A DNA stretch of 62,541 nt, the filler included, from Basidioascus undulatus (Eukaryota), in the NCBI GenBank assembly GCA_000826855.1. It is 4 parts of 4 records of this genome, joined end to end, with 100 filler letters (N's around TTAATTAATTAA, not from the genome) between each part and the next. Parts side by side here need not be neighbours in the genome. Positions count along the whole stretch, not along the records: positions 51,996 to 62,541 come from JTLS01001113.1; 3 more parts are not named here. One strand, 5' to 3'. The notes beneath the pieces were generated by a model. The model was not told where the DNA came from. It saw only the letters and a list, made by a program, of their open reading frames with translations, and did not search any database. This document shows, piece by piece, positions 51,996 through 54,820 of this stretch (its first letter is position 1; each line of letters opens with the position of its first letter). A program made the position numbers and the translations under genes.

Positions 51996-54820
51996 TCGTA
52001 CGGCGGCAGCGGCGGCGGCGGCGGCGGCTACGGCGGCGACCGCATGGGCAACCTCGGTGGCGGCCTCAGCAAGCCCAACTGGAGCTCCCAGACTCTCACC
52101 CGCTTCGTGCGTCTTACTCATTCCGCTCTGCTACTTCCCTCGGAGGGATCCCCTGACGATCATGCTTGGGGTTACAGGAGAAGAACTTCTACATCGAAGA
52201 CAAGCGTGTTTCTCAGCGCTCTGATCGCGAGATCGAGGAATACCGCAAGTCGAAGGACATGACCATCACCGGCACCGGCGTCCCCAAGCCGATTACGTCC
52301 TTTGACGAGGCCGGCTTCCCCGACTACATCCTGTCCGAGATCAAGACGATGGGCTTCGCCGCGCCGACGCCGATTCAGTGCCAGGCCTGGCCGATGGCGC
52401 TCAGCGGTCGCGACGTCGTCGCAATCGCCGAGACCGGTTCCGGCAAGACCATCTCCTTCGCCCTCCCCGCCATGGTCCACATCAACGCCCAGCCCCTCCT
52501 CACGCCCGGCGACGGTCCGATCGCGCTCATTCTCGCGCCGACGCGTGAGCTCGCCGTCCAGATTCAGGCCGAGTGCACCAAGTTCGGCCGGTCGTCGCGC
52601 ATCCGCAACACCTGCGTCTACGGCGGTGTGCCGAAGGGCGGCCAGATCCGCGACCTCCAGCGCGGCGCCGAGATCGTCATCGCTACCCCCGGTCGTCTGA
52701 TCGACATGCTTGAGTCCGGCAAGACCAACCTTCGCCGCGTCACCTACCTCGTCATGGACGAGGCCGACCGCATGCTCGACATGGGTTTCGAGCCCCAGAT
52801 CCGCAAGATCGTCGAGCAGATCCGTCCTGACCGTCAGACTCTCATGGTGCGTCCACCTTGCGGTCCTCTTCACGGCGCGACTGTTGCTGAACCAATCTGC
52901 TTCGGACCTGCAGTTCTCCGCTACCTGGCCGAGGGAGGTCCAGCGCCTCGCGCACGACTTTTTGCACGACTTCATCCAGGTCAACATCGGTTCGCTCGAG
53001 TTGTCCGCCAACCACAACGTCAAGCAGATCATCGAGGTCGTGACCGACTTCGAGAAGCGCGGCCGCCTCATCAAGCACCTCGACCAGATCTCGCAGGAGA
53101 ACGCGAAGGTTCTCATCTTCGTCGGCACCAGTACGTCACATCGGTACTTCGGGTATTCTGGCCGTGCTGATCAGGTGTGCCGCCCGCAGAGCGTACCGCG
53201 GACGACCTCACGAAGTACCTCCGCCAGGATGGCTGGCCCGCCCTCGCGATCCACGGTGACAAGCAGCAGCAGGAGCGTGACTGGGTGCTGGGCGAGTTCA
53301 AGAGCGGCCGTTCTCCTATCGTGCGTTTGCTTCCGCGTCTCCCCGTATTACGGCTCCGCTCACCCTGGCCGACGTACAGATGCTTGCGACTGACGTCGCC
53401 TCTCGTGGTCTCGGTATGCTTTCCTTCCATCCCCGACACTTTCTCCCCTTTCTTCTTCCCCCTTGCGTCGGCGGACCTTCTTTGTCCAAAGCGCGCCTTT
53501 CATTTTCCTTCTGCCCGTTTATTTCCGTCGAGTGCGCCGCATCCCCTTGGCACGCGCACAGCAGCGACAGGCTCTCCTGGACGCGGAGCTCTTGCGCCGC
53601 AACAGGTCTTCGGTGCCCCGTCCGCCTGCCGGTCTCGCACCGGCTGGGTCGGGCGGCGGTGGGTCTCGGTCTGGTCCAGCGTCGACGCGGGTGCTTGCCC
53701 GTCGTTCGGCTTGGCCGGAGCTCGACACGCCCAACACCGATCGCCGCGCAACCTCCCGCGTCGGCGCTGCGCCTGCACCGTGCCTGCCGCTCTCGCAGCG
53801 GGCCGCTCTGTGCAGCTTGATTCATTCTCGAGCGTAGTGGCACGGGCGCAGGCCTAAAGGTGCAGCCGGTTGATGTGCCGTCGGCCTCTGTTTATACCTC
53901 CTCCTCGCCGTCGTGTATCCCTTGAGCGCCTACTGACAAGCGGTCGCTCGCTTCTTTTCTCTCCCCTCTTCTCCCCTCACCGCCCTTCCTCCCGTGACTC
54001 GCTTGTCGTCCGCCTTCGTCGTGCCCTTCTCCCACCCTCACGACTTTCAACAGATGTCAAGGTATGTTGCCATTTCACTTGTGTGCTCGCTCGGGCGCTT
54101 CTGACCTGGGATCCGATGTCGTGCAGGACATCCGCTACGTCATCAACTACGTATGTTGCCACTTCATGTGTGTTCTCGCTCTGAGGGCGATTCTGACGCG
54201 TTGGGGGTGTCGTGCAGGACTTCTCGAACAACGTTGAGGACTACATTCACCGTATCGGCCGCACCGGTCGTGCGGGTACCAAGGGTACTAGGTGCGTACC
54301 CGCGAGTTCAATAGCTGCCCTCTTGGTCCTTTGGCTCTGAAACGTCCACCCTCTTCCTAGCTACACCTTCTTCACCACCGAGAACTCCAAGAACGCGCGC
54401 GACCTCGTCAAGATTCTGCGCGAGGCGAACCAGGAGATTCCCCCTGAGCTGGAGCAGATGGGTATGTTCGGCGTGCTTGTCTATCTTCCTGCCTCACAGC
54501 GCTGACATGCCGCATCCCCAGCGTCCTTCGGCGGCGGCGGTGGCCGTGGTGGTGGCCGTGGATACGGTGGTGGCGGTGGCGGGGGCGGTGGCAGTGCGTA
54601 TTTTGTCCAGTTTCCCCGACTCTCGTGTTTAGCTCGCGAACCTCGCTCTTGAGCAGGCTACGGCGGAGGCTCGTACGGTTACGGCGGTGGTGACAGCGGC
54701 TACGGCAGCCGTGGCGGCGGTACATCTTGACGTCTATTGACGTCGCTTGGCGCACGATGCTGACCTGTTCTATCGTTCCTTGCAGGGGGTGGCTACGGCG
54801 GCGGCGGCTCGCGCTGGTAA
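51996..54820 (+). CDS. DBP2: DEAD-box RNA helicase Dbp2/p68 (5' truncated)
   Basis: [109 protein letters not shown] and a Gly-rich tail ending SRW*. Confidence 0.97.
53414..54053 (+). promoter_or_regulatory. 640-nt structured DBP2 intron (putative autoregulatory element)
   Basis: GTATGC donor, TACTGAC at 53931, long pyrimidine tract and AACAG acceptor. Inverted repeats at 53677-53691/53755-53769 and 53771-53784/53839-53853. Confidence 0.65.
54062..54217 (+). repeat. Two paralogous spliceosomal introns (54062-54126 and 54151-54217)
   Basis: Hand alignment gives at least 49 identical positions in about 68 columns. Confidence 0.9.

What the first reader, a model, noticed from the sequence alone, without database searches (positions are those of the whole stretch)
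54062..54217. Two neighbouring DBP2 introns are copies of each other while the exons are not
Seen: intron A gtatgttgccatttcacttgtgtgctcgctc---gggcgcttctgac...tgtcgtgcag (65 nt) and intron B gtatgttgccacttcatgtgtgttctcgctctgagggcgattctgac...tgtcgtgcag (67 nt) share at least 49 of about 68 aligned positions, far beyond splice signals. Both are phase 0 and both are followed by GAC. The 24-nt exon between them encodes DIRYVINY, part of the normal conserved [13 protein letters not shown] helicase segment, so no protein duplication accompanies them. I noticed no other such intron pair in the window. Inference: one intron was templated from the other (intron transposition or reverse splicing, an introner-like element, or local intron-to-intron conversion). 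That would be a rare snapshot of spliceosomal intron gain.
Basis: partly seen in the sequence, partly recalled or inferred. Interest (0 to 1): 0.78.

Follow-up and report, generated by a model that had tools for sequence, protein, structure and literature searches.

The report
Duplicated neighbouring introns in fungal DBP2
Two small introns only 24 bases apart in an essential RNA-helicase gene of a basidiomycete fungus are copies of one another although the coding sequence around them is not duplicated, a clean but not unprecedented example of an intron being copied within its own gene.

Summary
Intron A (54062-54126, 65 nt) and intron B (54151-54217, 67 nt) of a DBP2/DDX5-type helicase gene are far more alike than any other intron-like pair. 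Their alignment score is 35, against a maximum of 14 in 1223 window pairs, 23 in 5000 signal-preserving shuffles, and 6 in 44 same-gene intron pairs of relatives' DBP2 genes.

DNA contigs of two studies span both copies. Spliced contigs of a third run remove both precisely and keep the 8-nt and 24-nt exons.

No exon sequence is duplicated. The introns are ordinary in length and folding. I found no third copy in the window or in 80 related loci. None of 55 informative relatives has an intron at either site.

The pair fits a class already in print: "same gene duplications" of fungal introns without exon duplication (Collemare 2013). The introner reading is not supported.

What stays open:
- Route: RNA-level reverse splicing, which I slightly favour, or DNA-level templated repair primed on the shared GAC.TC flank.
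- Direction: B to A is weakly favoured.
- Age: the copies differ at about 18% of positions, and no close relative or whole genome was available, so this is not shown to be a recent gain.

Interest is moderate. It is a new member of a known kind.

The parts
51996..54820 (+). DBP2/DDX5-type DEAD-box helicase gene, 5' end cut off by the contig start; stop codon at 54818-54820
   Evidence: The 223-aa exon 52178-52846 is 81-87% identical to named basidiomycete DBP2 proteins. The gene model from 52178 on gives a 1428-nt CDS with a single terminal stop. All ten GT..AG introns from 52847 on, plus 52107-52177, are skipped in X3 contigs.
53380..53413 (+). 34-nt exon ending ...SRGL plus the first base of the Asp codon (helicase motif V region)
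   Evidence: Own spliced alignment; X3 joints.
53414..54053 (+). 640-nt intron, phase 1, at the conserved DBP2/p68 intron position
   Evidence: Same position and phase in 31 of 54 informative relatives, 240-794 nt long. Spliced in X3 (joint 53413->54125), and retained in one X3 contig covering 53384-54059. Conservation of position and a regulatory role are described in PMC4695336 (passages read).
54054..54061 (+). 8-nt microexon completing Asp and encoding Val-Lys
   Evidence: X3 joint 53413->54125 carries ATGTCA between its two sides; own spliced alignment.
54062..54126 (+). Intron A, 65 nt, phase 0, at AAG|GAC; copy 1
   Evidence: X3 joint 54059->54125 skips 65, GT..AG, cut +2.
54127..54150 (+). 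24-nt exon encoding DIRYVINY; single copy
   Evidence: It lies between the two X3 joints. The same peptide segment is uninterrupted or differently interrupted in relatives.
54151..54217 (+). Intron B, 67 nt, phase 0, at TAC|GAC; copy 2
   Evidence: X3 joint 54150->54218 skips 67, GT..AG.
54218..54291 (+). 74-nt exon (DFSNN...[10 protein letters not shown], motif VI), starting with the GACTTC that matches the GACATC after intron A

Best explanation
Introns A and B are paralogous. One spliceosomal intron of this basidiomycete DBP2 gene was copied as an exact intron unit, from its first G to its last G, into a second site 24 nt away in the same gene, with no exon sequence copied. This is a 'same-gene intron duplication'. 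I put the copy itself at about 0.85-0.9.

Route I favour, narrowly: intron transposition at the RNA level. The excised lariat of one intron was reverse-spliced by the spliceosome into a DBP2 transcript at the nearby proto-splice-like site AAG|G. The RNA was reverse-transcribed, and the cDNA recombined with the gene. I give this about 0.4. The DNA-level rival gets about 0.33.

Direction I favour, about 60:40: B is the older copy and A the new one.

Shown:
- The homology.
- Exact coincidence of the copy's 5' end with the intron's first base.
- Absence of exon duplication.
- Splicing of both copies.
- Absence of both positions in all sampled relatives.

Inferred:
- The copying event.
- Its route.
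- Its direction.
- Its age. It is not very recent, since about 18% of positions differ.
For: Homology:
- Score 35 against a maximum of 14 in 1223 window pairs, 23 in 5000 signal-preserving shuffles, and 6 in 44 same-gene pairs of relatives.
- 28 of 33 non-signal positions are identical 5' of the branch site, and the last 10 nt are identical.

Unit-exact copy:
- Similarity starts at the first intron base.
- The exons before it (..TCAAG versus ..ACTAC) are unlike. The 24-nt exon between is single-copy and encodes the normal DIRYVINY.

Both are functional introns. X3 contigs skip exactly 65 and 67 nt with GT..AG ends.

The structure is real. X1 and X2 contigs from two studies span it without gaps.

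Lineage-specific positions. 0 of 54 informative metagenome relatives has an intron at 353.0 or 361.0, and the same holds for L016 after realignment.

Direction:
- A sits at AAG|G.
- Relatives have introns close to B's site: 359.0 in 10 loci, 361.2 in 2, 357.1 in 2. None lies near A's site except the ancient 350.1 intron.

Precedent. Half of 82 'same gene duplication' introns in 24 fungi lack exon duplication and were read as possible transposition within the same transcript (PMC3609843, section 4). A review lists intron transposition as supported only indirectly, by 14 events (PMC3443670, passages).
Against: - No step of the RNA route is observed here. According to the review read, it has never been shown in vivo.
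- The new site is hemmed in by retained introns 8 nt upstream and 24 nt downstream. A cDNA of a spliced mRNA could not have delivered the copy without also erasing neighbours. The template would have to be a largely unspliced transcript, or heteroduplex repair would have to restore the neighbour.
- Both copies are followed by GAC.TC (5 of 6). Reverse splicing does not predict this; microhomology-primed DNA copying does. I estimate the chance of such a match at a random site at about 0.005-0.01. That is my own post hoc arithmetic, not a tool result.
- About 18% divergence and a scrambled branch-to-acceptor spacer mean this is not a fresh event.
- No close relative was found. None of 12 best loci shares any other window-specific intron position, and none of the 80 loci shows synteny. 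Gain is therefore inferred only against distant lineages.
- Whole-genome copy number could not be checked.
Confidence: 0.42

Rival explanations
1. DNA-level local copy. A break or stalled fork at AAG^GAC was repaired by synthesis primed on the near-identical GAC.TC that follows the neighbouring intron. Synthesis copied that intron leftwards and the end was joined bluntly. Only a copy that happened to be an exact intron unit survived selection in this essential motif region.
For: - The two sites share GAC.TC immediately 3' of the intron (5 of 6). This is what microhomology-primed templated repair needs.
- The donor is only 24 nt away.
- No reverse transcriptase is needed, and there is no risk of erasing the adjacent introns, which are indeed retained.
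- Break-repair intron gain is one of the seven mechanisms listed in the review, with indirect evidence (PMC3443670, passages).
Against: - The 5' junction falls exactly on the intron's first base with no microhomology (AAG|G versus TAC|G). A DNA process has no reason to stop there; only selection can explain it.
- The GAC.TC match follows from Asp plus hydrophobic codons and may be coincidence.
- No short direct repeats flank either intron.
Confidence: 0.33
2. A and B belong to a low-copy or introner-like intron family, or one of them came from the second DBP2-like gene of the same genome (intron transfer between paralogues). In that case the true source lies outside this locus.
For: - Degenerating introner-like elements become indistinguishable from ordinary introns (PMC3609843).
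- A second DBP2-like contig exists in X1 and X2. It matches 53189-53245 and 54420-54566, including a diverged copy of the intron at 54462-54521.
- Only 62.5 kb of the genome could be searched.
Against: - No third copy in the window by blastn-short or by profile, nor in 80 related loci.
- Length is ordinary and there is no stable fold, unlike introner-like elements, which are about twice as long with lower free energy.
- Two independent insertions 24 nt apart would be an odd coincidence.
Confidence: 0.1
3. Segmental tandem duplication of [24-nt exon + intron] or [intron + 24-nt exon], followed by precise loss of the redundant exon copy.
For: - Half of the published same-gene intron duplications are segmental, with duplicated exons.
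- Tandem duplication is the only gain route shown in vivo (PMC3443670).
Against: - No trace of a second [14 protein letters not shown] copy exists in either intron or in the 640-nt intron.
- A and B end with the same 10 nt directly at the exon, so an exact 24-nt deletion would be required.
Confidence: 0.07
4. Independent introns kept or made alike by function, for example a shared small hairpin or protein-binding site that helps define the 8-nt and 24-nt exons or couples them to the regulated long intron. Alternatively, an old duplicate pair homogenised by conversion.
For: - Both fold a 6-bp hairpin around GCUC/GGGCG between the 5' splice site and the branch site.
- Similarity is concentrated outside the spacer.
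- They flank microexons next to an intron known to be regulatory in yeasts.
Against: - 28 of 33 identical non-signal positions over a continuous stretch is far beyond what a short motif needs.
- The hairpins use different registers.
- Conversion needs prior homology.
- Repeats of about 65 nt are very short substrates for conversion (my background knowledge).
Confidence: 0.05
5. Chance resemblance of two short GC-rich introns with the same splice signals.
For: Both share GTATGT, CTGAC and CAG, which give 14 matches for free.
Against: None of 5000 signal-preserving shuffles reaches even 23 against the observed 35. The pair is the single outlier among 1223 pairs.
Confidence: 0.02

Closest known systems
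'Same gene duplications' (SGD) of spliceosomal introns in fungi (van der Burgt et al. 2012, recalled; Collemare et al. 2013, PMC3609843, section 4 read)
   Same: - Similar introns confined to one gene.
- Ordinary length and free energy.
- A subclass without duplicated exon flanks, read by the authors as possible transposition within the same transcript or transfer between paralogues.
   Different: - Those cases were defined as near-identical by BlastN in whole intron sets of 24 species, mostly ascomycetes. The one basidiomycete listed, Cryptococcus neoformans, had 0 SGD.
- Here the copies are about 82% alike and only 24 nt apart. They sit in an essential helicase motif region, beside 8-nt and 24-nt exons.
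- Confinement to one gene is shown only for 62.5 kb.
Intron transposition by reverse splicing (Mycosphaerella/Zymoseptoria, Torriani et al. 2011; Oikopleura, Denoeud et al. 2010; both known to me only through the review PMC3443670, passages, and PMC4122922, one passage)
   Same: A new intron whose sequence is homologous to an existing intron and whose ends coincide with the intron unit.
   Different: - Those cases are mostly copies in unrelated genes and are more recent, near-identical or polymorphic.
- Here it is a single intragenic pair of unknown age.
Introner-like elements of Dothideomycetes and introners of Micromonas (PMC3609843; PMC4457414, passages)
   Same: Spliceosomal introns that exist as sequence copies.
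   Different: - Those are hundreds of copies in unrelated genes, about twice the normal length, with stable predicted structure.
- None of these features is met here.
Cryptococcus neoformans gene with several similar introns due to a repetitive exon structure (Sharpton et al. 2008, as cited in PMC3514964, passage, and PMC3609843)
   Same: A basidiomycete gene with similar introns within one gene.
   Different: There the exons are repeated too. Here the coding sequence is not repeated.
Conserved regulatory intron of DBP2/p68 (Iggo 1991 and Barta & Iggo 1995, as cited in PMC4695336, passages)
   Same: The 640-nt intron 8 nt upstream of intron A lies at this conserved position and is partly retained in transcript contigs.
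   Different: It is the neighbour, not the duplicated element, and it shares no sequence with A or B.

Membership tests
U2-type spliceosomal intron (both A and B) | GT..AG ends, a branch-site motif, and precise removal from RNA | tested here: met
   Both are GTATGT...CTGAC...CAG. X3 contigs skip exactly 65 and 67 nt with GT..AG ends. X3's library type is only guessed as 'DNA?' by the tool. I read it as RNA-derived because its contigs skip all introns of this gene.
Same-gene intron duplication (SGD, Collemare 2013) | Two or more introns of one gene are sequence copies of each other | tested here: met
   Score 35 against null maxima of 14, 23 and 6. Reciprocal blastn-short hit of 31 nt at 87%, E 0.003. 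Identity is about 82%, lower than the 'near-identical' wording of the paper.
Same-gene intron duplication (SGD, Collemare 2013) | Copies occur only within the same gene | tested here: inconclusive
   No other copy in the 62.5-kb window. No whole genome is held.
Same-gene intron duplication (SGD, Collemare 2013) | Length and folding energy like ordinary introns | tested here: met
   65 and 67 nt, against 59-69 nt for the other short introns of the gene. Fold z-scores are +1.14 and -1.94, within the range of four neighbouring introns, -2.4 to +1.0.
SGD subclass without segmental duplication | Exon sequence on either side is not duplicated | tested here: met
   Upstream flanks are unlike. The 24-nt exon is single-copy. 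Only GAC.TC is shared downstream.
Introner-like element | [quoted passage not shown] | tested here: inconclusive
   None in the window or in 80 related loci. The genome is not available.
Introner-like element | Longer than regular introns, with a stable predicted secondary structure | tested here: not met
   Ordinary length. A folds at -14.5 kcal/mol, z +1.14. B folds at -24.8 kcal/mol, z -1.94.
Intron gain by tandem duplication of an AGGT-containing exon segment | The intron sequence duplicates adjacent exon sequence | tested here: not met
   Neither intron resembles the flanking exons.
[quoted passage not shown] | Short direct repeats flanking the new intron | tested here: not met
   The flanks of each intron share at most the AG/G of the splice consensus. 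The GAC.TC match is between the two sites, not across one intron.
Recent lineage-specific intron gain | Position empty in close relatives and occupied here | tested here: inconclusive
   The position is empty in 55 of 55 informative relatives, but all of them are distant. They share no other window-specific intron position and show no synteny.
DBP2/DDX5 subfamily of DEAD-box helicases (host gene) | High identity to named DBP2 proteins, DEAD and helicase-C domains, and the conserved intron in motif V | tested here: met
   81-87% identity over 223 aa to named basidiomycete DBP2, whose precomputed Pfam domains are PF00270 and PF00271. The 350.1 intron is shared with 31 of 54 relatives.

The most novel reading that the evidence does not exclude
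The few codons just downstream of the ancient, slowly spliced regulatory DBP2 intron may be a hotspot where spliceosomes lingering on partly processed transcripts re-insert excised introns.

On this reading the A/B pair is a preserved product of reverse splicing into the gene's own transcript. The scatter of lineage-specific intron positions in the same nine codons would be older products of the same process: 353.0 and 361.0 here, 357.1, 359.0 and 361.2 in other fungi.

Five of about 20 distinct positions seen in residues 301-400 fall in this 9% of the stretch. My own binomial estimate is about 0.03, post hoc.
Probability: 0.12. Interest if true: 0.7.

Novelty: new member of a known kind. Interest (0 to 1): 0.4.

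Why it matters
How new spliceosomal introns arise is still argued. By one review's count, transposition of an existing intron rests on 14 indirect cases (PMC3443670).

This pair is unusually easy to read:
- It is an exact intron-unit copy.
- No exon is duplicated.
- Both copies are spliced.
- They lie 24 nt apart in a gene whose protein sequence and ancient intron give a firm frame of reference.
- It comes from a basidiomycete. The one basidiomycete in the fungal survey had no such case.

Once genomes of close relatives are compared, the pair could test RNA-level against DNA-level copying. The tight packing between retained introns and the shared GAC.TC flank make different predictions for the empty site. 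By itself it does not change the picture, because the class is known and the event is not dated.

Tried and rejected
- Whole-genome search for further copies: no genome is held for this window.
- The look-up of sequencing runs: no RNA holder listed. Three holders from two studies, all typed 'DNA?'; two of them may be the source of the assembly.
- In read laying, X1's depth over 54020-54221 equals that of the one spanning contig, while paralogous helicase pieces were laid on exon parts. This hints that X1's contigs hold no other copy at least 85% alike. Absence of cover proves nothing, and copies as diverged as A and B (82%) would be missed.
- The paralogue contig (X2 record 13, X1 record 6) could not be fetched. 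Its 241-nt spacing, against 274 exonic nt between the matched parts, hints that it lacks these introns, but I could not confirm this.
- Metagenome relatives gave 80 loci, but none from a close relative. None of the 12 best loci shares another window-specific intron position. ORFs from 54901-62541 gave no tblastn hit in any locus.
- blastn of the 640-nt intron and of A and B against the loci gave only weak hits for the long intron (E 0.057 or worse) and none for A or B. The profile search of the loci had a best E of 0.81.
- Rfam scan of 51996-56000 found nothing relevant: two sub-threshold hits elsewhere.
- Pfam scan of ten long ORFs, done to place the organism, gave only a sulfate permease and an AAA domain, so no taxonomic help.
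- My first ORF-supported intron finder is crude in this GC-rich DNA. It gave 57 candidates, some overlapping. I relied on the signal-defined set of 50 instead.
- My spliced aligner, with a 40-nt minimum intron, mis-set L016 and L017. Both were redone with shorter minima.
- The search of earlier findings, 5 look-ups: nothing on this genome, sequence or topic.
- I considered the AGGT tandem-duplication model, flanking direct repeats, and a hidden exon copy in the long intron. All were rejected on the sequence.
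Full report
**What is there.** The window is four contigs joined by N...TTAATTAATTAA...N linkers. The last contig (51996-62541) starts inside a DBP2/DDX5-type DEAD-box helicase gene on the + strand. Its 223-residue exon 52178-52846 is 81-87% identical to named basidiomycete DBP2 proteins and to none more closely. 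The host is therefore a basidiomycete without an annotated close relative in that collection.

From 52178 the gene model gives a 1428-nt reading frame with one terminal stop and ten introns. Nine are short, 59-69 nt. One is 640 nt (53414-54053).

Around the finding the layout is as follows:

| Coordinates | Feature |
|---|---|
| 53380-53413 | exon ending ...SRGL plus one base |
| 53414-54053 | 640-nt intron |
| 54054-54061 | 8-nt microexon |
| 54062-54126 | intron A, 65 nt |
| 54127-54150 | 24-nt exon, DIRYVINY |
| 54151-54217 | intron B, 67 nt |
| from 54218 | exon, DFSNN... |

Along the introns the likeness is uneven:
- From the 5' splice site through the CTGAC branch motif, 39 of 44 positions agree, with one 3-nt indel. 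Outside the splice signals, 28 of 33 agree.
- The last 10 nt are identical.
- The 10-12 nt between branch motif and that tail are unlike.

Three controls show the pair is an outlier:
- Among 1223 non-overlapping pairs of 50 signal-defined intron-like segments of the window, scores average -2.7 (sd 6.0) and the next best is 14.
- 5000 shuffles of B that keep GTATGT, CTGAC and CAG in place average 8.0 (sd 3.9), with a maximum of 23.
- 44 same-gene pairs of short introns in 24 relatives' DBP2 loci reach at most 6.

The exons are not duplicated. The bases before the introns differ (..TCAAG versus ..ACTAC). The 24-nt exon is single-copy. Only GACATC versus GACTTC is shared after them.

**Is it an assembly artefact, and are both spliced?** Contigs of X1 (2677 nt) and X2 (10923 nt), from two studies, cover 52044-54664 with one differing letter and no gap. 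Either may be the assembly's own source, so this amounts to at most one independent confirmation.

Contigs of X3 join 54059->54125 (skips 65, GT..AG) and 54150->54218 (skips 67, GT..AG). They also join 53413->54125 with ATGTCA between the sides, which is the 8-nt microexon. Every other intron of the gene is skipped as well.

The tool only guesses X3's type as 'DNA?'. I read it as RNA-derived because its contigs are spliced throughout and much deeper than X2's.

**What it is not.**
- It is not introner-like by the published criteria of many copies, about double length and a stable fold. A and B have ordinary length. Their folds are unremarkable (z +1.14 and -1.94, within the range of four neighbouring introns).
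- No further copy appears in the window by blastn-short or by an A+B profile (next best E 0.96). None appears in 80 related loci. Rfam finds nothing.
- It is not the AGGT tandem-duplication type, because the introns do not resemble the adjacent exons.
- It does not carry flanking direct repeats.
- A segmental duplication of exon plus intron would have left a second [14 protein letters not shown] copy. There is none.

**Relatives.** A scan of metagenome contigs gave 80 DBP2 loci. I aligned the window's spliced protein to them with a splice-aware aligner of my own. On the window itself it recovers all six introns of that part of the gene, microexons included.

Over residues 341-370, 54 loci are informative. 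L016 becomes a 55th after realignment. Intron positions in this stretch:

| Position | Loci |
|---|---|
| 350.1 (long intron) | 31 |
| no intron in this stretch | 22 |
| 359.0 | 10 |
| 361.2 | 2 |
| 357.1 | L016 and L017 |
| 353.0 (A's site) | 0 |
| 361.0 (B's site) | 0 |

The sampled relatives are all distant, however. None of the 12 best loci shares any other window-specific intron position, and none of the 80 loci shows synteny. The gain cannot be dated, and 'snapshot' is too strong for copies that differ at about 18% of positions.

**How it most likely arose.** A copy of one intron was placed 24 nt away. I hold this with about 0.85-0.9 confidence. Two routes remain.

*RNA route: reverse splicing into a DBP2 transcript, reverse transcription, then recombination.*
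- It explains directly why the copy is exactly an intron unit, and why it landed in a proto-splice-like AAG|G.
- It is the reading offered in print for such cases.
- Against it: no step is observed, and the review read says it was never shown in vivo. The site lies between retained introns 8 and 24 nt away, so a cDNA of spliced mRNA would have erased neighbours.

*DNA route: break repair or template switching primed on the shared GAC.TC.*
- It needs no reverse transcriptase and keeps the neighbours.
- It predicts just such a shared 3' flank.
- It has to lean on selection to explain the exact, microhomology-free 5' junction.

I give the RNA route about 0.4 and the DNA route about 0.33. The remainder goes to four rivals:
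- a family or paralogue source (0.10);
- segmental duplication with later exon loss (0.07);
- functional convergence or conversion (0.05);
- chance (0.02).

For direction I lean B to A, about 60:40. A sits at AAG|G, and other lineages have introns within 6 nt of B's site but none near A's, apart from the ancient intron.

**Comparison with what is known.** The closest class is the 'same gene duplications' of fungal introns. These comprise 82 introns in 11 of 24 species, with normal length and energy. [quoted passage not shown] The only basidiomycete in that table, Cryptococcus neoformans, had none (PMC3609843, section 4 read).

A Cryptococcus gene with similar introns was ascribed to repeated exons (passages in PMC3514964). 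A review counts 14 unambiguous intron-transposition events, in Mycosphaerella and Oikopleura (PMC3443670, passages).

My searches for same-gene or neighbouring intron copies found no report concerning DBP2 or this arrangement. These searches cover only the held open-access library.

**Verdict.** This is a real, well-supported pair of paralogous introns and a new member of a known kind. It is useful as a test case once close relatives and the full genome are compared, but it is not surprising in kind.

**Side observations.**
- The 640-nt intron is the conserved DBP2/p68 intron. It is retained in one transcript contig in which intron A is already spliced out.
- The nine codons after it carry five different intron positions across lineages.

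Noticed in passing
window 30536-30635, 41241-41340, 51896-51995: The window is not one piece of genome. Four contigs are joined by linkers of N runs around TTAATTAATTAA. The DBP2 gene is cut at its 5' end by the last linker.
   Followed up: yes
window 53414-54053: This 640-nt intron, phase 1 in the Asp codon after SRGL, lies at the position of the conserved regulatory DBP2/p68 intron and is present in 31 of 54 informative relatives. One X3 contig (53384-54059, word depth 138 against about 500-800 for spliced contigs) retains it although intron A is already removed. That fits regulated retention as described in yeasts.
   Followed up: partly
window 54054-54061: An 8-nt microexon lies between the 640-nt intron and intron A. 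Spliced X3 contigs confirm it by carrying its letters between the two sides of the joint.
   Followed up: yes
window 53189-53245 and 54420-54566: X1 and X2 each hold a second contig (524 nt and 3018 nt) that matches these two parts at about 85%. The match includes a diverged copy of the intron at 54462-54521. The spacing is 241 nt where this gene has 274 exonic nt plus five introns. This is probably a DBP2 paralogue with fewer introns; it could not be fetched.
   Followed up: no
codons 353-361 of the gene model (window 54062-54220) and loci L016, L017, L038, L042: Five different intron positions (353.0, 357.1, 359.0, 361.0, 361.2) occur within nine codons in different fungal lineages, just after the ancient intron. 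This may be a hotspot or intron sliding. My post hoc binomial estimate is about 0.03.
   Followed up: partly
L016, within locus bases 801-1800: The best spliced alignment needs an intron of only 25 nt (GT..AG with CTGAC) at position 357.1. The related L017 has 38 nt at the same place. That is unusually short for a spliceosomal intron, and the source organism is unknown.
   Followed up: no
run X3: The tool guesses this run as 'DNA?', yet its contigs are spliced at every intron of this gene. It behaves like a transcriptome library of the same sample as X2.
   Followed up: partly
L056: This is the relative with the most similar protein: 90% over the 223-aa exon and 348 of 430 residues overall. 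It lacks the ancient 350.1 intron and has three introns at other positions (98.2, 308.2, 397.1).
   Followed up: partly
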